A DNA stretch of 64,000 nucleotides from Candidatus Faecimorpha stercoravium (GTDB lineage: Bacteria; Bacillota; Clostridia; Lachnospirales; Bianqueaceae): positions 20,763-84,762 of the forward strand of contig DVGT01000062.1 in the NCBI GenBank assembly GCA_018712555.1, given 5' to 3'. Numbering within the stretch: the stretch's first letter is position 1; every line of letters starts with the position of its first letter. Made by a program: the position numbers and the translations under genes. Below the pieces are notes generated by a model. It saw nothing but the letters and a program-made list of their open reading frames with translations, did no database searches and was not told the DNA's origin. Shown here piece by piece: positions 33,464-45,957 of the stretch.

Positions 33464-34210
33464 ATGGAAAAAGAACTGCAGGGACGGATTGGCATTGTGA
33501 CTGGCGGAAGCAGCGGAATCGGGTATGCCATCGCGAATACCCTGGCGGAAGCTGGCGCGACCGTCTATGTCATCAGTCGTACCGGAGGAGAGAAGAAGGG
33601 ACTGGAACCCAATCGAGAGGGCGTGATTCATACCATCGGCGATGTGACGCATTTTGAAGAGATGCGATCGCTGGTGAATGCGATCGCCTCCAGAGAGGGC
33701 CTGGATTTCCTGGTGAATAATGCGGGTATCACGAAGAAATGCCGGGCAGAAGAGTTTCCGATGGAAGACTTCGAAAGGATTCTCAATGTGAATGTCACAA
33801 GCATTTTCGCGCTGTGCCAGAGTGCATATCCCTACCTGAAGGCCAGTCAGCATAAGGGCCGCATCATCAATATCAGCAGTATGGCGGCGCATCTGGGATT
33901 TTCCGAGGTAGTTCCCTACTGTACCAGCAAAGCGGCTGTATGCGGTATGACAAGAGGACTAGCGGTGGAATGGGCTAATGACAACATTACGGTCAACAGC
34001 ATTGCACCGGGATGGTTTCCCAGCGAGATGAGTAAGCAAGTCATGACGCCGGAGCGCAAACAGGCCATTCTGGGCCGTATGCCAGTACATGCCTTTGGCG
34101 ATACGAAGGACTTGGGGGCGATGGCCAAATTCCTCCTGGGAGATGGTGCAAAGTATATCACAGGACAGGACTTTGCCGTAGATGGCGGTGCGCTGGCCTA
34201 CGGATTTTAA
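33464..34210 (+). CDS. SDR family oxidoreductase (KduD/gluconate-5-dehydrogenase-like)
   Basis: TGGSSGIGYA cofactor motif and YCTSK catalytic YxxxK. RBS GGAGGA at 33451-33456. Confidence 0.88.
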   Translation: MEKELQGRIGIVTGGSSGIGYAIANTLAEAGATVYVISRTGGEKKGLEPNREGVIHTIGDVTHFEEMRSLVNAIASREGLDFLVNNAGITKKCRAEEFPMEDFERILNVNVTSIFALCQSAYPYLKASQHKGRIINISSMAAHLGFSEVVPYCTSKAAVCGMTRGLAVEWANDNITVNSIAPGWFPSEMSKQVMTPERKQAILGRMPVHAFGDTKDLGAMAKFLLGDGAKYITGQDFAVDGGALAYGF

Positions 34211-34220
34211 GGAGAAGATC

Positions 34221-35614
34221 ATGGGACATTTTAACGAAGACTTATTCTTGACCAATGAGACAGGGAAGCGACTGTATCACTCTTACGCGGAACAGATGCC
34301 TATTATTGACTATCATTGCCATCTGTCACCGAAGGAGATCTATGAAAACAAAGAATTCGAGGATCTGGGAGAAATGTGGCTCTCGGGGGATCACTATAAA
34401 TGGCGGGTCATGAGGACCTTCGGCATTCCCGAGAAGTATATCACGGGAGACGCCAGTTATTATGAGAAATACATGGCCTTCGCCAAGATTCTGCCGGAAC
34501 TCATCGGCAATCCCATCTATATCTGGTGTGCATTGGAACTCAAGCGATACTTCGATATTGACGAGCCGCTGTCCGAGGAAAATGCGGATGAGATTTATCA
34601 GAAGACCCGCTCTATGATTCGAAAAGAGATATGACGCGGCGCTGGTGCATGGAGAAAAGTCGTGTGGAACTGGTTTCTACGACAGAGGATCCGACGGACA
34701 CTCTGGAATATCATTTTCTGATGCGGAAGGAACAGCATAAGACCAAGGTCGTATCCGCTTTCCGGCCAGATAACGCGATGTTTATCACTCGTCCCACATT
34801 CGGAGACTATATGAAAAAGCTATCGGCAGCAGCCGGGATCCCGGTACAAAGCTTCCAGGATATGCTGAAGGCGCTGGAATTGCGACTGCAATATTTCCGC
34901 CAGGTAGAAACCACCGTTTCGGATGATGGCATTCCTTATTTATATTGGGAAGACTTCACGATGGATGAGATTGAAGCCATCTGGCAAAAAGCCATGAGAG
35001 GAGAGTCCCTGACCTCGAAGGAGGAAAATCAGTATATCAGCGCATTTTTGTTTCATATGGGGCAGCTCTACTATGATCATGGTTTTGTCATGCAGCTTCA
35101 TATCGGAACCTATCTGGATTGTAATCGCAAGGGCGTTGCAGAAGTGGGCCAATCCTGCGGATTCGACTGCACGGACGATTCGACTTCGATTTTAAGTGTA
35201 GGCGAACTCCTGAACCGCCTGACAGAGATCGGAAAGCTTCCTAAGACGATTCTATATCCGCTGGATGCCGCGAAGCAGGAAAACTTCGCAATCCTGGCTG
35301 CTGGATTCTGCGAAGGAGGTACACGAGCCAAGGTGCAGTTAGGGGCTCCCTGGTGGTTCAATGACCATGTCTATGGACTGGAGCGGCAATTCCAGGCGGT
35401 CGCGAACCTGTATCCCATCAGTCTATCCGTGGGAATGCTGACAGACAGCCGGAGTTTTATCTCCTATCCCCGCCATGAATTGTATCGCCGAGTACTCTGC
35501 AACTACTTTGGAATGCTAGTCGAACGGGGAGAGTATTTCGGAAGTGAAGAAACACTGCAAAAAGTGATTCAAAATATTTGCTATTACAATGTGAAAGACT
35601 TTTTCGGATTTTAA
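34221..35614 (+). pseudogene. uxaC: Glucuronate isomerase uxaC interrupted by a 1-nt frameshift
   Basis: ORF 34221-34634 (…IDYHCHLSPKEIY…) and ORF 34631-35614 (…RVELVSTTEDPTD…WWFND…) together align collinearly with a ~465-aa UxaC. The frame switches within GAAAAGAG at 34621-34628. Confidence 0.8.
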
Positions 35615-35625
35615 TGTATAAGAGA

Positions 35626-35658
35626 GGACTCGCCTGCATATTGGGCGAGCCCTTTTTT
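35626..35658 (+). terminator. Rho-independent terminator after uxaC
   Basis: GGACTCGCC / GGCGAGCCC stem (8 of 9 pairs), 9-nt loop, then TTTTTT (35653-35658). Confidence 0.65.
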
Positions 35659-35740
35659 GTAAATATATTGTAAACATTCCCCATTTCGCCAGCCACCTTC
35701 TCTCTAAAAAGCGACTATAGATGAGTGGAGGGCGATATTC

Positions 35741-36493
35741 ATGAACGTTCTACTTTTACTCCAGGAACGCACTCGCATCCAGCAGGCACTGCTTCATTCG
35801 CCGCCCGGCCATCTCGTATATCATAAAGGCCGCTACGGCGCCCAGCAGTACACCCGCCCCTCGGATCATAAGCGCGTCCAGAAATACATTCGCATGAAGG
35901 ATCTTCCGCAGATGGAAGCGCGCTATCGGGAGAAAGCCACCCTGGAAGCGCGCCTCCGGGAGATCGAGAAGCTCCTTCGCGCAGATCCCAAGGAGGTCAA
36001 ACGCGTGAAGGCCCAGCTGCAGCGGGAAGAGCGGAATCTATTGGAGACACTCCGGAAGCCGCACAGCGCGCAGTATCGGCATCTCACACTGCGCGGCGAA
36101 TATGTGGCCTCCAAGTCCGAGGCGCTCCTGGCCGACTACTTATATTTTCACCACATCCCTTACGAGTACGAGCAGCCCCTCTTCGTCCGAGGCGTCTGCT
36201 ATCATCCCGACTTCACACTCTCGATTCGCGGCGTGACCGTATACGTCGAGCATCTGGGACTGCTCGATCAGCCCCAATATGCCGAGGAGTGGAAGAAGAA
36301 ATACCAGCAGTATCAATCCATCGGGATCCACGAGGGCTTCAACCTCATCTGCACCCGCGAGCACGAGGGCGCCATCAACATGCAGGAGATCGACCACCAG
36401 TTCCGCGACATGGGCGTCATCGGGAAAAACTGGGACAAGATCGCAGTGCGGGATCAAGAGCGCATCCGACGAAGAAGGGAAAAGAAAAAGTAA
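35741..36493 (+). CDS. Orphan protein: charged helical N-terminal half plus PD-(D/E)XK-like C-terminal motif set
   Basis: RBS GGAGGG 7 nt upstream. Motifs SKSEALLADYL...PYEYEQPL...HPDFTL...VYVEHLG and basic tail RIRRRREKKK. Codon usage is strongly G/C-ending, unlike the neighbours. Confidence 0.6.
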   Translation: MNVLLLLQERTRIQQALLHSPPGHLVYHKGRYGAQQYTRPSDHKRVQKYIRMKDLPQMEARYREKATLEARLREIEKLLRADPKEVKRVKAQLQREERNLLETLRKPHSAQYRHLTLRGEYVASKSEALLADYLYFHHIPYEYEQPLFVRGVCYHPDFTLSIRGVTVYVEHLGLLDQPQYAEEWKKKYQQYQSIGIHEGFNLICTREHEGAINMQEIDHQFRDMGVIGKNWDKIAVRDQERIRRRREKKK

Positions 36494-36495
36494 TA

Positions 36496-36522
36496 CTATT
36501 ATATATAATATTAATATAATAG
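36496..36522. other. AT-only perfect inverted repeat in the leader of the repeat array
   Basis: CTATTATAT (36496-36504) / ATATAATAG (36514-36522). Two TATAAT hexamers lie at 36504-36509 and 36515-36520. Confidence 0.5.
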
Positions 36523-36555
36523 CATTTAAGTGTTTCTTCTTTGTGGGAAATCCGT

Positions 36556-37277
36556 CCCCTCGGTGATATTCTCATCACTTAGATGCTATGAATTGTAAAA
36601 TCGCGCTGCGGCGATGAGATCTTCTCATCACTCAGACCCCTGGAATTGTAAAATCTCGCTGCGGCGATGAGATTCTCGGGGGCCCGGGGATTTTCTCATC
36701 ACCCAGGCGCTCTGAAATGTAAAATATCGCTGCGGCGATGAGATTCTCCGGGGCCCCCGGGGATTTTCTCATCACTCAGGCACTTTGAATTGTAAAATCT
36801 CGCTACGGCGATGAGAATCTCGGGATTTTCTCATCACCCAAGAATTCTTGAATTGTAAAATCATGCTGTGGCGATGAGAATCTCGGGGCCCCCTGAAGAT
36901 TTTCTCATCACTCAGACCCCTGGAATTGTAAAATCGCGCTGCGGGGATGAGAATCCCAGGGGGCCCGAAGGGATTTTCTCATCACTCAGGCGCTCTGAAT
37001 TGTAAAATCATGCTGCGGCGATGAGACTCTTGGGCCCCTGAAGATTTTCTCATCACCCAGGCGCTCTGAAATGTAAAATCTCGCTGCGGCGATGAGATTC
37101 TCCGGGGCCCCTGAAGATTTTCTCATCACTCAGTTCTCTTGAAATGTAAAATCTCGCTGCGGCGATGAGATTCCCCAGGGATCCGAGGGAATTCTCTCAT
37201 CACTTAAGCACCCTGGAATGTAAAATTTTGCAGCGGGGATGAGAATCTCTGGAAGCCCAAAGATTTTCTCATCTAGA
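36556..37277. repeat. Tandem array of 10 full, one truncated and one decayed leading copy of a 53-74 bp dyad-rich repeat
   Basis: TTCTCATC starts at 36569, 36622, 36693, 36766, 36828, 36902, 36976, 37047, 37120, 37194 (variant) and 37266. Conserved blocks are TTCTCATCAC, TGAAWTGTAAAATC and GCTGCGGCGATGAGAWTCTC, joined by variable G/C-rich linkers. Confidence 0.92.
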
Positions 37278-37288
37278 GATATATAAAA

Positions 37289-37314
37289 GGGGCTGCTGAG
37301 TCTTCAGCAGCTCC
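37289..37314 (-). terminator. Rho-independent terminator of alaS
   Basis: On the minus strand: GGAGCTGCTGA-AGAC-TCAGCAGCCCC followed by TTTTATATAT. Confidence 0.75.
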
Positions 37315-37323
37315 TTGATGAAA

Positions 37324-39966
37324 TTATTTCTGCAGTTGTTCGATAGCGGTCTCTGTCGCTTTCTTTAGGGCTTCCTCAATCTTTGATGAATCTTTTCCAC
37401 CAGCTTGCGCCATATTGGGACGTCCGCCGCCATTTCCGCCAGTGATTTGCGCCGCCACTTTGACAATATTGCCGGCATGAGCGCCCTTCTTGACAGCGTT
37501 CTCTGTGGCCATGACAACAAAAGAGAGCTTTTCTTTTCCGCCAGCTAGGATGATGATGGAGTCACCTAATTTATCCTTTAGGGTGTCACCCATCTGACGC
37601 AGGGCATTGTTGTCGAGCTCGGGACGATATGCACTGAGGATGGAAATATCTGCGACCTTTTGTACATCCTTCAAAATGTCATCCGCCGCATTGGCCGTCA
37701 TCTTGGCTTTCAGGCTTTCAAGTTCTTTTTGCAGGGATCTGAATTCTTCCATAAGGTTTTGCGCCTGCATTACGGCCTTTTCTTTGCTGACTTTGAAGAG
37801 GTGTGCGATCTGATCCAGCTCTTCATCCTGCTTGCGGAAATATTCCAGTGCCTTTTCGCCGGTCAATGCCTCGATACGCCGTACGCCCGCAGCCACGCCG
37901 CCTTCGGAAAGAATCTTGAAGCATCCGGCCTGCGCTGTGTTCGAGAGATGGGTACCGCCGCACAACTCGATGCTGTAGTCGCCCATCATGACCATACGAA
38001 CCTGATCGCCGTATTTCTCGCCGAAGAGAGCCATCGCGCCCTTCTTACGCGCTTCATCCATCGTTGTGATCTCTGTACAAATAGGCAATGCTGCGAGGAT
38101 CTCACGATTGACTTCGTCTTCGACCTGCTTCAGTTCTTCTGCGCTCATGGCCTGGAAATGGGTGAAATCGAAACGCAGTCTGTCAGCGGTCACATCGGAA
38201 CCTGCCTGCTCTACGTGGGAACCTAATACATTACGCAGCGCTTTCTGCAACAGGTGTGTCGCGGAGTGATTGCGCGCGCAGGCCATACGCTGCTCGCCAT
38301 TTACGGTGAGCGTGGCGATCTGTCCGTTCTCGATATAGCCTTCCGTGACTCTGCCCACATGACCAATCTTGTCGCCGATCGCCTTTTTGGTCGTCTCTAC
38401 TTCTACGGTACCTGTCTGTGTATGCAGAATACCACTGTCGCCATGCTGGCCGCCGCTAGTCGCATAAAATGGCGTATGATCCAGAAATACGGTAACATGC
38501 TGGCCCGATTCTGCCTTCTCCACTACCTCAGACTCTGTGGTGATCGCCAGAATCGTGCTGTCAGATTCCTCCAGGCGGTCGTATCCATGGAATTCTGTCA
38601 CCATATTGGGATCCAACAAATTATAGACTGTCGCCTTGGCACCCATATAGTTGGACTCTTCTCTGGCGGAACGGGCACGAAGGCGCTGCGCCTCCATTTC
38701 CTGCTGGAAGCCTTCCTCGTCCACGGTCATATTGGCTTCCTGCGCGATCTCCAGAGTGAGATCCATGGGGAATCCATAGGTATCATACAGCTTAAAGGCC
38801 TGACCGCCGGAAAGCACATTCTTGCCCGTCTTCTGATTCTCCTGGATATACTGCTGTAATCTTTCCAGTCCCGAGTCGAGCGTGGCATAAAATTTCTCTT
38901 CTTCGCTATGAAGCACCTTGAAAATGTACTCCTTTTTATCCTCTAATTCCGGATACGCGTCTTTAGAATTCTCAATGACGGTATTGCTGATTTCTGCCAG
39001 GAATGGACGAGAAATGCCGAGGAGTTTTCCATGGCGTGCCGCACGGCGCAGCAGACGACGCAGTACATAGCCCCGGCCCTCGTTGGAAGGCAGGACGCCG
39101 TCGGAAGTCATGAACGTCATGGAACGAATATGATCGGTAATGACACGCACTGAAACATCGGTCTCATGTTTTTTCCCGTATTCCACATTCGCAATCTGAC
39201 ACACATGATCCCGGATCGCCTTAATGGTATCCACATCGAAGATCGAGTCCACACCCTGCATCAGAGCTGCCAATCTTTCCAGTCCCATACCCGTATCGAT
39301 ATTCTTATGCTCCAGTGTCTGGTAGCTGCCATCGTCCTGACGGTCGAACTGCGTAAATACATTATTCCAGAATTCCATGTAGCGATCGCAATCGCAGCCT
39401 ACTGTGCAGCCCGGCTTACCGCAGCCATATTCCTCGCCGCGATCGTAGTAAAGCTCTGAGCAAGGACCGCAGGGACCAGAGCCATGCTCCCAGAAGTTGT
39501 CTTCCTTCCCCATGCGGAAAATGTGATCCATGGGCATACCGATCTCCTCATGCCAGATACGTTCTGCCTCATCATCATCCTGATACACGGTCACATAGAT
39601 GCGCTCCGGTTCCATTTCCAGCACTTCGGTGCAATATTCCCAGGCCCAGTGAATGGCCTCTGTCTTGAAATAATCTCCGAAGGAGAAATTACCCAGCATT
39701 TCGAAAAAGGTGCCATGACGCGCCGTCTTTCCCACATTTTCGATATCGCCGGTACGAATGCATTTCTGACAGGTCGTAACCCTTTTGCGGGGCGGTACTT
39801 CCTGTCCCGTGAAATACGGCTTCAGCGGGGCCATACCTGCATTGATTAAAAGCAGGCTGTTATCGTTCTTCGGAATCAAAGGAAAGGAGTTCATCCGCAG
39901 ATGTCCCTTCGACTCAAAAAAACGAAGATAACTCTCTCGAAGTTCGTTTAATCCCATGTACTTCAT
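37324..39966 (-). CDS. alaS: Alanine--tRNA ligase
   Basis: 880 aa. RFFESKGH N-terminus, editing-domain HSATHLL, C-terminal DHHA1 GGGGRPNMAQAGG. Its RBS AAGGAG lies inside the last ribF codons. Confidence 0.95.
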   Translation of the reverse strand: MKYMGLNELRESYLRFFESKGHLRMNSFPLIPKNDNSLLLINAGMAPLKPYFTGQEVPPRKRVTTCQKCIRTGDIENVGKTARHGTFFEMLGNFSFGDYFKTEAIHWAWEYCTEVLEMEPERIYVTVYQDDDEAERIWHEEIGMPMDHIFRMGKEDNFWEHGSGPCGPCSELYYDRGEEYGCGKPGCTVGCDCDRYMEFWNNVFTQFDRQDDGSYQTLEHKNIDTGMGLERLAALMQGVDSIFDVDTIKAIRDHVCQIANVEYGKKHETDVSVRVITDHIRSMTFMTSDGVLPSNEGRGYVLRRLLRRAARHGKLLGISRPFLAEISNTVIENSKDAYPELEDKKEYIFKVLHSEEEKFYATLDSGLERLQQYIQENQKTGKNVLSGGQAFKLYDTYGFPMDLTLEIAQEANMTVDEEGFQQEMEAQRLRARSAREESNYMGAKATVYNLLDPNMVTEFHGYDRLEESDSTILAITTESEVVEKAESGQHVTVFLDHTPFYATSGGQHGDSGILHTQTGTVEVETTKKAIGDKIGHVGRVTEGYIENGQIATLTVNGEQRMACARNHSATHLLQKALRNVLGSHVEQAGSDVTADRLRFDFTHFQAMSAEELKQVEDEVNREILAALPICTEITTMDEARKKGAMALFGEKYGDQVRMVMMGDYSIELCGGTHLSNTAQAGCFKILSEGGVAAGVRRIEALTGEKALEYFRKQDEELDQIAHLFKVSKEKAVMQAQNLMEEFRSLQKELESLKAKMTANAADDILKDVQKVADISILSAYRPELDNNALRQMGDTLKDKLGDSIIILAGGKEKLSFVVMATENAVKKGAHAGNIVKVAAQITGGNGGGRPNMAQAGGKDSSKIEEALKKATETAIEQLQK

Positions 39967-43233: not shown

Positions 43234-45957
43234 TTAGCTTCTTGTGATCTCCTCCATCGAGAAGGCCTCAATCGTATCGCCTTCCTTAACATCGCTGAAG
43301 GATTTCAGCATGATACCACACTCATAATTCGTGGCGACCTCCTTCACATCGTCCTTGAAGCGGCGCAGAGAATCAATCTCGCCCTCATAGACGACGATGC
43401 CGTCTCGAATCAGTCTCGCCTTGCTGCCTCTTGTGATCTTACCATCGGTCACATAGCAACCGGCAATCGTACCGATACCCGACACCTTGAAGGTCTGTCT
43501 CACCTGTGCGTGACCATCTACCTTCTCCTGGAATTCCGGATCCAGCATACCCTTCATGGCGGCTTCGATATCCTCAATCGCATCGTAAATCACGCGGTAT
43601 AGACGCATATCCACTTTTTCCCGCTCCGCCACGGCCTTAGCACCCGCATCTGGCCGCACGTTGAAACCGATGATGATCGAATTGGACGCCGATGCCAACG
43701 TCACGTCGGATTCGTTGATGGCACCCACACCGCCATGGACGATTCGGAGTACCACCTCATCGTTAGACAGCTTCTCCAGACTCTGACGCACCGCTTCCAC
43801 GGAACCCTGTACGTCCGCTTTCACGATGATATTCAGTTCTTTCATCGAACCTGCCTGAATCTGATCGAAGAGACTCTCCAACGAAACCTTCTTGGTCCCC
43901 TCCAAAAGCTTCTCCCGATCCTTGGCGCTGACCTTCTCAGCCAGCTGTCTGGCTTCACGCTCACTCGGCGTCACAAAGAACTGTTCTCCCGCTACAGGAA
44001 CTTCCGACAATCCCAGAATTTCCACCGGATCCGATGGTCCTGCGCTCTTTACTTTCTTGCCTTTATCATCGCTCATGGCCTTCACGCGGCCGAACGCCTT
44101 GCCCACTACAATCGAGTCTCCGATTCTAAGCGTGCCGTTCTGCACCAGCGCTGTAGCCACAACGCCGCGGCCCTTATCCAACTGCGCCTCGATGACATGC
44201 CCTGTCGCAGGTCGATCCGGATTGGCCTTATATTCTTCCATGTCGGCAACCAGCAGAACCATCTCCAGCAGCGTATCAATCCCTTCTCCGGTCTTGGCGG
44301 ATACCGGCACACAGATCGTAGAACCGCCCCATTCCTCTGGGATCAATTCATATTCTGTCAGCTGCTGCTTCACATGGTCCGGATTCGCCTCTGGCTTATC
44401 CATTTTATTGATCGCCACGATGATCTGCACACCAGCCGCCTTCGCATGGTTGATCGCCTCAATCGTCTGCGGCATGATACCATCATCTGCGGCCACTACC
44501 AGGATGGCAATATCCGTCACCTGTGCGCCTCGAAGACGCATGGCCGTGAATGCCTCATGTCCCGGAGTATCCAGGAATGTGATCTTACGATCATTGATGC
44601 TGACCACAGAAGCACCGATATGCTGCGTGATACCGCCAGCCTCTCCCGCGGTTACCTTCGTCTTACGAATCGCATCCAGCAAAGAAGTTTTACCGTGATC
44701 TACATGACCCATCACAACGACAACCGGCGGACGGCTCTTCAGGCTTTCGGGAGAATCCTGCTGCTCCATGTAAGCCTTGAAAATATCCTCTTCCTGCATG
44801 GGTTCTGCCAGGATATCCATCTCCAGTGCCAATGCCTCTGCCTGCTCATAGTCCAGGTCATCATTCTGGCCCATCATCTTACCCTTCAGCATCAGGCTCT
44901 TGATGATCTGAGTTACTGGCTTCTTGACCATGTCCGCAAACTCCCGTACGGTCATCATCGCCGGAAGCTGCACGACTTTGATCTCTTCCTCTTCTTCCTG
45001 CGGCTTGGGCGCGGGTTTATTCTTTTTGACGCGATTCTTTACCACCTCATCGTCTTCTTCGCCCATTGCCATGAAGTTTTTGTTATGCCGACGTCCAAAG
45101 CCGTCCTGCGATACGTTCTTCGCCCTCTCTCTTTCCTTATCCTTATCCCGGCGCATACGTTCCGTCTTCTTCGGCTTATCGATGGCAGACGTCACTTCCT
45201 TCGGCGCCTCCGGAATGGAAAGCTCTTCCTGATTCCGGCCGCCGCGATTGCCAGTCTGTGGCCGCGCATTGCCGCGCGAGTTTCCAAAATTGCGGTCTCT
45301 GCCCCGGTTCTCATTCGATCCCTGATTCCGGCCGCCGCGCTGATTCTGGCTTCTCTCGCTCCGGTTTTCATTTCGATCATTCCGCTCGCTCCGGTTCTCA
45401 TTCCGGTTCGTACGAGGCCGATCTCCCTTGGGGGCATTCTCTTTCTTCGCACTCGTTTCAGGACGCTCCGCTTTCTTCTGCGGTTCTTTTTCCTTAGCCG
45501 CTTCCGGCTTTTTCTCCGGCTTCTTTTCTGTTTTCTCGTTTTTGGGCTGCTCCGCCTTAACTACAGGTTCCTTGGGCTGCTCCGCTTCCTTCTTTTCCGG
45601 AATCGGTTTCGCCTCTACCGCTTCCTTCTTTTCGGGAACTGGCTTCACCTCCACCGGCTCCTTTTTCTCTGGTACCGGGGCTTCCTCTTGCTTTTTCTCG
45701 GGGACCTCTTTCTTCGGAGCCGGTTTGTTCTCTTCTTTCTTAGGCGCGGGCTTCGCTGCTGCCGCACTCTTTGCCGCCGGCCGCTTAAACCGGGGCTCTT
45801 TACCTGTCAGCTTCACACAAACCTTGCGGATCTCCTCCATCTCCAGAGGAGCCTTGGCATTGGGAACAAATACCCCGATACTCTCCAGACATTTCAGCAC
45901 ATCTCCGCTGCTGACCTTTAATTGCTTTGCCAAACTTTCAACTGTTATTTTTGCCAC
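43234..45957 (-). CDS. infB: Translation initiation factor IF-2
   Basis: [13 protein letters not shown]-domain. Long low-complexity Lys/Glu/Pro and Arg/Asn/Gly N-terminal region. GTG start. Confidence 0.95.

What the first reader, a model, noticed from the sequence alone, without database searches (positions are those of the whole stretch)
36556..37277. Unrecognised tandem array of a 53-74 bp dyad-rich repeat in the only large non-coding gap
- **Unit positions:** units, counted from the first T of TTCTCATCAC, begin at 36569, 36622, 36693, 36766, 36828, 36902, 36976, 37047, 37120 and 37194. A truncated copy begins at 37266. The periods are 53, 71, 73, 62, 74, 74, 71, 73, 74 and 72 bp.
- **Consensus:** TTCTCATCAC - short variable hairpin - TGAAWTGTAAAATC - 3 variable nt - GCTGCGGCGATGAGAWTCTC - G/C-rich, partly palindromic linker (absent in unit 1; 3 nt GGG in unit 4; 12-15 nt elsewhere, e.g. 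GGGGCCCC) - GATT.
- **Alternative pairings:** every unit carries TCTCATC and its exact reverse complement GATGAGA. Each GATGAGA can therefore pair with the TCTCATC about 40 nt upstream, enclosing the conserved TGTAAAAT segment. It can instead pair with the TCTCATC of the next unit, enclosing the G/C linker. At the unit 1/2 junction this second pairing is a perfect GATGAGA-TCT-TCTCATC hairpin. The two pairings are mutually exclusive.
- **Non-coding:** period differences are not multiples of 3, stop codons occur in all frames, and there is no RBS.
- **Identity:** the parts between repeats are themselves conserved, so this is not a CRISPR array. I do not recognise it as a named RNA family or REP/BIME type.
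- **Context:** it lies between convergent 3' ends, directly after an orphan nuclease-like gene.
- **Possible roles:** a multi-hairpin ncRNA or protein sponge, an array of protein-binding sites (iteron- or centromere-like), or a BIME-like extragenic palindrome cluster.
Basis: seen in the sequence. Interest (0 to 1): 0.85.

Follow-up and report, generated by a model that had tools for sequence, protein, structure and literature searches.

The report
Helically phased repeats beside nuclease gene
The repeat array is real and is one half of an unannotated, portable two-part module: a small nuclease-like gene plus its own tandem DNA repeats, whose unit lengths are whole numbers of DNA helical turns, so it most likely acts as a row of protein docking sites on duplex DNA, not as an RNA.

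Summary
The array (window 36566-37277; 10 units plus a stub; periods 53, 62, 71-74 bp) is confirmed and matches no Rfam family. It is not an orphan. The adjacent 250-aa gene (35741-36493) encodes an unannotated protein with a fold-less N-terminal half and a C-terminal PD-(D/E)xK nuclease domain. Its small relatives (230-290 aa; Clostridia, Treponema, Fibrobacter) carry their own lineage-specific arrays right next to the gene: 24 of 75 loci by TRF against 0 of 78 loci where the same nuclease domain sits in large proteins. Most TRF-negative loci have degenerate arrays upstream. Near-identical copies of gene plus array occur with three different flank combinations and different unit numbers (10 vs 4). 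Unit lengths are quantised at multiples of about 10.5 bp (42, 52, 63, 74, 84, 95, 105, 128), with p about 1e-5 after collapsing relatives; this held in hold-out loci and was absent in control flanks. Stem mismatches show no strand bias (53 vs 62). Only short blocks are conserved. Best reading: a helically phased array of duplex-DNA binding sites for the neighbouring protein, iteron- or oriT-like. It fails the membership tests for type III toxin-antitoxin, TIGR-Tas, CRISPR, REP/BIME and MOB_C. The function is inferred, not shown.

The parts
35629..35649 (+). Terminator hairpin of uxaC. This is the left neighbour and is not part of the module.
   Evidence: Terminator-like site CTCGCCTGCATATTGGGCGAG followed by a T-run. 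Homology with L086 starts just after it.
35656..35740 (+). Left end of the portable module and upstream/leader region of the nuclease-like gene. It begins TTTTGTAAATATATTGTAAAC, i.e. two TTGTAAA motifs.
   Evidence: Identical in the window, L086 and L087, while the sequence to its left differs in L086. The region is homologous in the upstream regions of the L004, L006 and L088 genes.
35741..36493 (+). 250-aa protein. The N-terminal half is a helix, a 3-stranded sheet and a long helical hairpin. The C-terminal half (about residues 115-225) is a PD-(D/E)xK nuclease domain followed by a basic tail.
   Evidence: - No Pfam, NCBIfam or PHROG family.
- AF2 model pLDDT 87.9.
- Foldseek matches: Bax1, R2 endonuclease, Hjc, homing endonucleases.
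- PADLOC: PDC-S68 C-terminus at E 1e-31 and PDC-S69 at 4e-10.
- Invariant residues E127, D157, E170, H171, K187.
- The N-terminal half has no structural match; best E is 0.41.
36494..36565 (.). A+T-rich spacer with A/T-only palindromes between the gene stop and the first unit.
   Evidence: Inverted repeats I15 and I19; sequence. Conserved in L087.
36566..37277 (.). Tandem array of 10 units plus a truncated 11th.
- TTCTCATC starts: 36569, 36622, 36693, 36766, 36828, 36902, 36976, 37047, 37120, 37194, 37266.
- Unit lengths: 53, 71, 73, 62, 74, 74, 71, 73, 74, 72 bp.
   Evidence: The lengths lie near 5, 6 or 7 helical turns (mean cos 0.73 at 10.5 bp).
36623..36631 (.). Conserved block A (TCTCATCAC), shown for unit 2. 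It is the left dyad arm.
   Evidence: Invariant in 13 of 13 units of the window and L087.
36643..36654 (.). Conserved block B (GAAWTGTAAAAT), shown for unit 2.
   Evidence: Nearly invariant; only the W position and the leading G vary.
36666..36672 (.). Conserved block C (GATGAGA), shown for unit 2. It is the right dyad arm and is preceded by GCTGCGGC.
   Evidence: Invariant in 13 of 13 units. The centres of blocks A, B and C are about 22 bp apart.
37287..37316 (-). Terminator hairpin of alaS. This is the right neighbour and is not part of the module.
   Evidence: I18. Minus-strand terminator GCTGCTGAAGACTCAGCAGC followed by CCCTTTTATA.

Best explanation
The array is the DNA half of a two-part, portable module. 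The other half is the adjacent small protein, which has an N-terminal reading/oligomerising half and a C-terminal PD-(D/E)xK nuclease domain.

The repeats work as duplex DNA. Each unit carries short conserved blocks (here TCTCATCAC, GAAWTGTAAAAT and GATGAGA, about two helical turns apart). Units are spaced by whole numbers of helical turns. Proteins bound to successive units therefore face the same side of the helix and can assemble cooperatively, as on plasmid iterons, partition centromeres or the direct repeats of a MOB_C oriT.

Shown:
- the gene-array association;
- portability of the module;
- helical quantisation of the unit length;
- block-wise conservation;
- absence of strand bias in stem mismatches.

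Inferred:
- the binder is the neighbouring protein, through its variable N-terminal half and helical-hairpin dimerisation;
- the assembly keeps an active-site-intact nuclease docked at its own locus (self-titration or autoregulation; most arrays lie just upstream of the gene's promoter);
- and/or the assembly positions the nuclease for site-specific nicking in or beside the array, which would explain the rapid changes in unit number and the movement of the module.
For: Association:
- Relatives at only 40-48% identity are each followed by a different array, in unrelated neighbourhoods.
- By TRF, 24 of 75 small-ORF loci have a flanking array against 0 of 78 large-ORF loci with the same nuclease domain (Fisher p 4e-9).
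- TRF-negative loci have long upstream gaps holding degenerate arrays.
- A dominant k-mer spacing appears in 29 of 100 flanks against 2 of 111 control flanks (p 6e-9); 27 of the 29 are upstream of the gene.
- In L142 the same 128-bp repeat lies on both sides of the gene.

Portability:
- Copies 96-99% identical occur with three flank combinations.
- They carry 10 or 4 units.

Duplex-DNA level:
- Periods of 22 sequence-unrelated repeat families give mean cos 0.76 at 10.5 bp. None of 200,000 random sets reaches this, and the best fit is 10.6 bp.
- Hold-out loci give 73, 84 and 135 (= 63 + 72) bp.
- Degenerate arrays give mean cos 0.74, against 0.07 in control flanks.
- After collapsing to 31 protein clusters the mean cos is 0.54 with p 1e-5. 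It peaks at 10.5 and is negative at 11.0, the RNA helical repeat.
- Close relatives differ by whole turns: 63/73, 53/105, 43/52/63/84.
- The window's own units are 53, 62 and 71-74 bp.
- Stem mismatches split 53 G-U on the gene strand against 62 on the other strand, with 86 transversions.
- Only short blocks are conserved.
- Recurrent 8-mers track protein relatedness.

Precedent:
- The MOB_C relaxase TraX is a small PD-(D/E)xK protein that binds direct repeats in its oriT (PMC12857230).
- In pTEF1 the oriT region has an inverted repeat plus 12-bp direct repeats.
Against: - No binding, expression or activity data exist; the link between protein and repeat is by association only.
- The k-mer test for a shared operator between each array and its own gene's upstream region was not diagonal-dominant.
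- In the window clade the array lies downstream of the gene, which does not suit simple promoter autoregulation.
- Dyad half-site spacing across units varies (3, 12, 21-24 bp), so the inter-unit dyad cannot be a fixed-spacing dimer site.
- The N-terminal half has no recognisable DNA-binding fold.
- Several upstream arrays are C-poor and fold better on the gene strand, which would also fit transcription.
- Score thresholds in the k-mer statistic were chosen after seeing data, although the same threshold was applied to the controls.
Confidence: 0.55

Rival explanations
1. The module is an oriT-like or ori-like site plus a nicking enzyme. The protein would be a functional analogue of MOB_C relaxases (or of a Rep initiator). 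It would bind the phased repeats and nick nearby, so that a helper conjugation or replication system can mobilise the module and adjacent chromosome. This is a specific version of the best explanation.
For: - Same overall logic and size as TraX: about 260 aa, an N-terminal DNA-binding part, a PD-(D/E)xK catalytic part, and a gene next to direct repeats plus a dyad.
- The module is found with three different flank combinations.
- Unit number changes between near-identical strains.
Against: - No detectable homology to MOB_C: hhalign probability 0.2% and no PF13814 hit.
- No wHTH in the N-terminal half.
- No integrase, coupling protein or T4SS genes nearby.
- The small family is absent from plasmid and phage records.
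- Units are 42-135 bp, not 11-12 bp.
Confidence: 0.15
2. The array is transcribed into a multi-unit structured RNA. This RNA would be a type III-antitoxin-like inhibitor, a sponge or a scaffold that binds and restrains the nuclease. Each unit would fold into the GAUGAGA...UCUCAUC hairpin.
For: - Nuclease plus adjacent tandem repeats recalls ToxIN.
- Many arrays lie upstream on the gene's strand.
- Upstream arrays are C-poor and fold better on that strand (L017: -212 vs -133 kcal/mol).
- Strong dyads occur in every unit.
- There is a compensatory C-G to T-A change in the dyad between the window and L006/L088.
- Promoter-like and terminator-like signals exist near or in arrays.
Against: - Unit lengths follow the 10.5-bp B-DNA repeat, and the fit is lost at 11 bp. 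An RNA has no reason to obey this.
- A strand-neutral count of wobble against A-C mismatches is balanced at 53:62, with 86 transversions.
- The window array folds equally well on both strands: -279.6 vs -285.6 kcal/mol.
- The favoured strand differs between loci.
- Degenerate arrays conserve only short motifs and not pairings.
- No Rfam family matches.
- The toxin fold is not ToxN-like.
Confidence: 0.12
3. The array has no function of its own. It would be a minisatellite produced and reshaped by hairpin-prone DNA, or by repair of breaks made by the neighbouring nuclease.
For: - Unit number varies between near-identical strains.
- In L142 the gene sits inside its array.
- The palindromes behave like neutral DNA palindromes.
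Against: - Short blocks are invariant while the segments between them vary freely.
- In degenerate arrays only about 16-18 of 64 positions and the spacing survive, which indicates long-term selection on motifs and phase.
- Arrays recur with unrelated sequences across the family.
Confidence: 0.08
4. The array is a guide-RNA array (CRISPR-like or a TIGR-Tas stem-loop array), or an ordinary REP/BIME palindrome cluster.
For: - The periods are CRISPR-like.
- The minus strand carries GUGAUGA and CUGA, which are box C/D-like.
- TIGR stem-loop arrays have variable palindromic segments (PMC12045711).
Against: - No Nop-domain protein is present.
- There are no variable non-palindromic spacers; the variable segments are diverged copies of each other.
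- The box-like motifs are not conserved across arrays.
- The core motif has no match in viral contigs.
- There are no dispersed copies in 64 kb of window or in 177 loci.
Confidence: 0.03

Closest known systems
MOB_C relaxase with its oriT (pAD1/pTEF1 TraX; CloDF13 MobC)
   Same: - A small protein (about 260 aa) with an N-terminal DNA-binding part and a PD-(D/E)xK catalytic part.
- The gene lies beside a non-coding region with helically spaced direct repeats plus a dyad.
- It occurs in Firmicutes.
   Different: - No detectable homology and no wHTH.
- Units here are 42-135 bp, each with its own dyad, in 2-10 copies. pTEF1 has 12-bp repeats next to one large inverted repeat.
- The setting is chromosomal, without transfer genes, and the family is absent from plasmid records.
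Plasmid Rep-iteron origins and partition centromeres (R1 ParR-parC, F SopB-sopC)
   Same: - Tandem direct repeats in helical register next to the gene of the protein that binds them.
- Repeat sequence is specific to each lineage.
- Copy number is variable.
   Different: - The partner here has a nuclease fold with intact catalytic residues. It is not a WH, RHH or HTH binder.
- There are no replication or motor genes.
- The units are much longer: 4-12 turns against 1-4.
- The location is chromosomal, between housekeeping genes.
Type III toxin-antitoxin (ToxIN, CptIN, TenpIN)
   Same: A nuclease gene next to a short tandem array, and a compact two-part module.
   Different: - The toxin fold differs.
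- The units are longer and are quantised by the DNA helical repeat.
- There is no strand bias.
- The array can lie upstream, downstream or on both sides of the gene.
TIGR-Tas stem-loop arrays
   Same: - Tandem units with palindromic variable segments and short conserved motifs.
- Found in gut metagenomes, beside a small effector gene.
   Different: - No Nop domain.
- No dual 8-12-nt spacers.
- No conserved box C/D pairs.
REP/BIME with RAYT
   Same: Extragenic palindromes flanking a nuclease or transposase-like gene.
   Different: - There are no dispersed copies.
- The partner is PD-(D/E)xK, not an HUH transposase.
- The tandem units are long.

Membership tests
Type III toxin-antitoxin | The toxin is a ToxN/AbiQ-type (or CptN/TenpN) endoribonuclease. 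| tested here: not met
   There is no Pfam or PADLOC ToxN/AbiQ hit. The fold is PD-(D/E)xK.
Type III toxin-antitoxin | A short (about 34-45 nt) direct-repeat array lies upstream of the toxin on the same strand, separated from it by a terminator. | tested here: not met
   - In the window the array is downstream of the gene.
- Units are 53-74 bp here and 42-135 bp in the family.
- L107 has a promoter, not a terminator, between array and gene.
Type III toxin-antitoxin | The repeats act as processed RNA units that bind the toxin. | not testable with these tools
   There are no expression data. Indirect evidence is against it: helical quantisation and balanced wobble/A-C counts.
TIGR-Tas | An adjacent Tas protein with a Nop domain. 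| tested here: not met
   There is no Pfam hit. The N-terminal model has no PDB match (best E 0.41) and the C-terminal half is PD-(D/E)xK. The feature is as defined in PMC12045711.
TIGR-Tas | [quoted passage not shown] | tested here: not met
   The variable segments are diverged copies or palindromic linkers. CUGA is present in only some units, and the motifs are not shared by other arrays.
CRISPR | Identical repeats separated by unrelated spacers, with cas genes. | tested here: not met
   The whole unit is repeated at 77% identity. No spacer-like segments exist. The neighbours are uxaC and alaS.
REP/BIME | Many dispersed copies at unrelated intergenic sites in the genome. | tested here: not met
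   No copy lies outside the array in the 64-kb window at up to 3 mismatches. Among 177 loci the core occurs only in the orthologous L087. The whole host genome was not available.
MOB_C relaxase / oriT | The protein belongs to Replic_Relax (PF13814) and has an N-terminal wHTH. | tested here: not met
   The pTEF1 TraX-like protein hits PF13814 and HTH_45. This family does not. hhalign probability is 0.2%.
MOB_C relaxase / oriT | A large inverted repeat with a nic site next to short helically spaced direct repeats, within a transfer region. | tested here: not met
   The pTEF1 pattern is seen. Here the units are long, each with its own dyad, and there are no transfer genes.
MOB_C relaxase / oriT | Site- and strand-specific nicking, and helper-dependent transfer. 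| not testable with these tools
   This needs biochemistry and mating assays.
Iteron / centromere-type binding-site array (a functional class, not a homology family) | Tandem direct repeats in helical register next to the gene of their binding protein. | tested here: met
   Quantisation at 10.5 bp and adjacency to the gene.
Iteron / centromere-type binding-site array (a functional class, not a homology family) | The adjacent protein binds the repeats specifically. | not testable with these tools
   The evidence is only indirect: the repeats are lineage-specific and motif sharing tracks protein identity.
Iteron / centromere-type binding-site array (a functional class, not a homology family) | It belongs to a replicon or partition cassette (Rep, ParA/ParM/TubZ). 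| tested here: not met
   No such genes are found in any locus examined.

The most novel reading that the evidence does not exclude
This would be a previously unrecognised class of compact chromosomal module. An active sequence-specific PD-(D/E)xK nuclease would be stored as a cooperative filament on its own helically phased DNA repeat array, which would act as a DNA-level 'holster' or antidote. The nuclease would be released or activated on some trigger, for example phage attack, loss of the locus or a change in supercoiling. The result would be either defence or self-propagation of the module between genomes.
Probability: 0.25. Interest if true: 0.88.

Novelty: new variant of a known kind. 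Interest (0 to 1): 0.74.

Why it matters
If the reading is right, hundreds of gut and rumen bacteria carry an undescribed protein-DNA module. Its logic resembles iterons, centromeres or MOB_C transfer origins, but it is built from an unannotated nuclease family and from unusually long, helically quantised repeat units. It would add a new kind of site-specific nuclease with a built-in, fast-evolving DNA address. It would also explain a class of 'mystery' intergenic minisatellites in Clostridia. The prediction is sharp and cheap to test: function should tolerate 10-11-bp changes in unit length but not 5-bp changes. The helical quantisation of tandem-repeat length is itself a simple sequence-only criterion for separating DNA-level arrays from RNA-level arrays, and it could be applied genome-wide.

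Tried and rejected
- **Box C/D or k-turn reading.** The minus strand has GUGAUGA and CUGA, but the motifs are not conserved across arrays and there is no Nop domain.
- **One promoter per unit (NsiR1-like).** TTCTCA-17-TACAAT occurs on the minus strand only in the window clade. The L004 hits lie inside the palindrome, and L001 and L107 have none.
- **Strand assignment from folding energies.** The asymmetries mostly reflect base composition and differ between loci. A strand-neutral test replaced this.
- **Unit-specific compensatory pairing in var1 and the linker.** Not above chimeric or shuffled controls.
- **General 21-bp periodicity of conservation.** Present only in the window, L068 and L157.
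- **Phased A/T-tracts (intrinsic curvature).** The helical harmonic ranks in the top 3-4 in 10 of 13 arrays, which is suggestive only.
- **Shared operator between an array and its own gene's upstream region.** The k-mer matrix is not diagonal-dominant.
- **Host avoidance of the dyad arm.** 18 hits observed against about 20 expected.
- **Small peptides encoded per unit.** Frames are not conserved, because unit lengths differ by non-multiples of 3.
- **Phage or plasmid origin.** Only the nuclease domain occurs there, inside large ATPases or helicases.
- **Literature.** Six full-text searches found no description of such a module.
- **Alignment A1 for locus finding.** Too divergent, so A2 was used.
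Full report
**1. The observation**

The array is there and at the stated coordinates.
- TRF reports 36618-37249 with period 73, 8.8 copies and score 596, plus a 53-bp first unit.
- An ungapped repeat search gives 11 copies of GATTTTCTCATC spaced 53, 71, 73, 62, 74, 74, 71, 73, 74 and 72 bp.
- The 30-nt core has 9 matches at up to 3 mismatches. All are in the array and on one strand, with none expected by chance and none elsewhere in the window.
- Rfam has no match at gathering thresholds in the whole window, and only noise in a permissive scan of the region.
- The flanks are a 250-aa ORF (35741-36493, +) and alaS (37324-39966, -), followed by ribF, truB, an nrnA-like gene and rbfA. This gives a Firmicute-type context.

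- The 'short variable hairpin' is no more self-complementary than shuffled sequence.
- The dyad of the G/C linker is generic rather than unit-specific.

**2. The array is one half of a gene + array module**

- The 250-aa protein has no Pfam, NCBIfam or PHROG family. It does have about 30 relatives in the large protein collection.
- Relatives at 40-48% identity sit in unrelated neighbourhoods, and each is followed by its own tandem array with a different sequence. L001 has 82 bp x 7.2 and L004 has 75 bp x 9.8.
- L006 and L088 (48-49% identity) carry a recognisably homologous 63-64-bp unit. In it the dyad has changed compensatorily from TTCTCATC/GATGAGAA to TTCTCATT/AATGAGAA.
- Scans of GTDB representatives and metagenomes found about 500 relatives each. 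These fall into two architectures: small proteins of 230-290 aa, and large proteins (mostly 1100-1260 aa) that share only the nuclease domain.
- Tandem repeats (period at least 35 bp, at least 1.9 copies, within 1.3 kb) flank 24 of 75 small-ORF loci and 0 of 78 large-ORF loci (Fisher p 4e-9).
- In all the other fetched DNA (about 1.1 Mb) only five long-period repeats exist, against 34 next to small-family genes.
- Arrays lie downstream of the gene (the window clade, L001, L004, L068, L084), upstream (L017, L031/L107, L076, L101, L157, L170), or on both sides. In L142 the same 128-bp repeat flanks the gene on both sides in direct orientation.

**3. The module is portable and dynamic**

- L086 (protein 100% identical) shares sequence with the window only from window position 35655 rightwards. 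Unrelated DNA and a different neighbour gene lie to the left.
- L087 (99% identical, same uxaC upstream) has only four units. These differ from the window's at the variable positions. L087 then diverges into a terminator and MFS/ClpB genes instead of alaS.
- The unit of inheritance is therefore about 35656-37277.
- The small family is essentially absent from plasmid, phage and viral-contig collections, and the core motif has no match in viral contigs.

**4. The protein**

- AlphaFold2 gives a confident model with pLDDT 87.9. It has a helix, a three-stranded sheet and a long helical hairpin (residues 1-104), then a PD-(D/E)xK domain (about 115-225) and a basic C-terminal helix.
- Foldseek matches the C-terminal half to Bax1, the R2 restriction-like endonuclease, Hjc and viral homing endonucleases or resolvases.
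- PADLOC matches it to the C-terminus of candidate defence protein PDC-S68 (E 1e-31) and more weakly to PDC-S69.
- The acidic and basic signature residues (E127, D157, E170-H171, K187) are invariant, so the protein is probably an active nuclease.
- The N-terminal half, modelled alone at pLDDT 89, has no structural relative; the best E is 0.41.

**5. RNA or DNA?**

- Folding whole arrays on both strands gave inconsistent preferences. C-poor upstream arrays favour the gene strand, several downstream arrays favour the opposite strand, and the window is a tie.
- I then used a strand-neutral test. Stems were defined from each array's consensus with Watson-Crick pairs only, and variants were counted over all units. 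The result was 53 G-U on the gene strand, 62 A-C (which is G-U on the other strand) and 86 transversion mismatches, with parity array by array. There is thus no signature of a one-strand RNA constraint.
- Promoter-like and terminator-like matches are not consistent between loci.

**6. Helical quantisation**

- The periods of 22 sequence-unrelated repeat families next to these genes are 41-45, 62-64, 73-75, 82-84, 95 and 128 bp.
- The mean cosine of 2*pi*P/10.5 is 0.76. None of 200,000 random sets reaches this. Scanning helical repeats from 9 to 12 bp puts the optimum at 10.6 bp, with 0 of 20,000 random sets reaching it.
- Three hold-out loci fetched afterwards gave 73, 84 and 135 bp, the last made of alternating 63- and 72-bp sub-units.
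- The apparently array-less members have 300-850-bp non-coding stretches upstream of the gene. These contain degenerate arrays: short conserved motifs around variable centres, spaced 64, 64, 65, 64 (L058), 64, 128, 64, 63 (L044), 84 (L077), 106 (L096) and 52 bp (L012).
- A k-mer spacing statistic found a dominant spacing in 29 of 100 such flanks against 2 of 111 control flanks of large-ORF loci, and 27 of the 29 are upstream. The modal spacings (51-54, 61-64, 73-75, 80-85, 101-105) again give mean cosine 0.74 (p below 1e-5), against 0.07 for control flanks.
- After collapsing 53 loci into 31 protein clusters (at least 60% identity, median period) the mean cosine is 0.54 with p 1e-5. It peaks at 10.5 and is negative at 11.0, the RNA helical repeat.
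- Members of one cluster differ by whole turns: 63/73, 53/105, 43/52/63/84.
- Within the window the odd units are 53 and 62 bp, beside the 71-74-bp units.
- An RNA has no reason to obey the B-DNA repeat. Arrays of sites bound cooperatively on one face of the duplex do.

**7. What is conserved**

- In 13 units from the window and L087, TCTCATCAC, GAAnTGTAAAAT and GATGAGA are invariant or nearly so, while the segments between them vary freely. The block centres are about 22 bp apart.
- In degenerate arrays only about 16-18 of 64 positions are kept.
- Recurrent 8-mers are shared in proportion to protein identity: 0.001-0.002 below 50%, 0.03 at 50-70%, 0.08 at 70-90% and 0.97 above 90%.
- These patterns fit protein-binding sites that co-diverge with their binder. 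Common descent alone could also give the last trend.

**8. Mechanism**

The best-supported reading is that the array is a helically phased set of duplex-DNA docking sites for the adjacent protein. The variable N-terminal half would read and oligomerise, and the nuclease domain would be held at, or act at, the array.

- Shown: the association, the portability, the phase quantisation, the block conservation and the lack of strand bias.
- Inferred: the identity of the binder, the cooperative assembly and the biological outcome.
- Possible outcomes are self-titration or autoregulation of a potentially toxic nuclease, and/or site-specific nicking that drives unit turnover and mobility.
- Weak points: the downstream position in the window clade, the failed operator-sharing test, the lack of a recognisable DNA-binding fold and the absence of any experimental data.

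**9. Comparison with known systems**

- The nearest precedent is the MOB_C relaxase with its oriT. MOB_C relaxases are PD-(D/E)xK proteins. TraX has an N-terminal wHTH and binds five direct repeats of its oriT (PMC12857230).
- In pTEF1 the 261-aa TraX-type gene lies beside a nested inverted repeat and 6-7 direct repeats of 12 bp.
- Membership fails, however. hhalign probability is 0.2%, there is no PF13814 hit, there is no wHTH, there are no transfer genes, and the repeat architecture differs.
- Rep-iteron and ParR-parC or SopB-sopC systems share the phased-repeat logic but not the protein type or the accompanying genes.
- Type III toxin-antitoxin, TIGR-Tas (PMC12045711), CRISPR and REP/BIME each fail a defining feature that was tested (see the membership table).
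- No Rfam family covers any of 17 array-bearing loci.
- Full-text searches found no description of such a module.

**10. Verdict**

- The finding is real and not ordinary. It is a member of an undescribed gene + DNA-array module.
- I classify it as a new variant of a known kind (phased binding-site arrays beside their binder's gene), with a 0.25 chance that it is something categorically new, namely a nuclease stored on its own DNA array.
- Confidence in the DNA-level binding-array reading is 0.55. The RNA reading is at 0.12.
- Caveats: all evidence is computational. Sampling was capped at 80 loci per scan. Thresholds of the k-mer statistic were set after seeing examples, although they were applied identically to the controls. 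Host genomes could not be scanned in full for dispersed copies.

Noticed in passing
window 34182-35614: uxaC (glucuronate isomerase) is split into two overlapping ORFs, 34182-34634 and 34631-35614. They match Pfam UxaC positions 5-136 and 142-464. This is a frameshift, so either a pseudogene or a sequencing error, immediately upstream of the module.
   Followed up: no
L088 1147-1302: In the 49%-identical relative the 2-unit array is followed at once by a promoter-like TTGACA...TACAAT and a tRNA-Leu(AAG) gene. Other copies of the module abut alaS (the window), thrS (L005) and truA (L004). It is unclear whether the recurrence of tRNA-related neighbours is a coincidence.
   Followed up: partly
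L004 6707-6753: A perfect 20-bp-stem hairpin with a T-run on the minus strand only lies between the gene stop and the array. It would stop transcription coming leftwards through the array from the truA side.
   Followed up: partly
L142 1195-1752 and 3201-3441: The same 128-bp repeat (72-76% identity, direct orientation) lies on both sides of the nuclease-like gene, as if the gene were inserted into its own array.
   Followed up: partly
L013, L016, L037, L041 and about 70 other loci: The same nuclease domain forms the C-terminus of proteins of about 1100-1260 aa in many phyla. They are annotated AAA ATPase or RecD/RecQ-like helicase on plasmids and match PADLOC candidate PDC-S68. None has a flanking array.
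   Followed up: partly
window 35656-35676 and 35716-35727: The gene's own upstream region carries two TTGTAAA motifs (the array's block B core) and GATGAGTGGAGG. That 12-mer also occurs in every unit of the unrelated L107/L031 array. The significance is unclear.
   Followed up: partly
window 45582-45678: A 36-bp tandem repeat (2.7 copies, 78% matches) lies elsewhere in the window. It was not examined and is probably inside a coding region.
   Followed up: no
L107 4462-4603 and L031 4850-4945: A second, unrelated 42-44-bp tandem repeat (2.3-3.2 copies) lies about 1.1 kb downstream of the gene, beyond the next ORF, in both orthologous loci.
   Followed up: no
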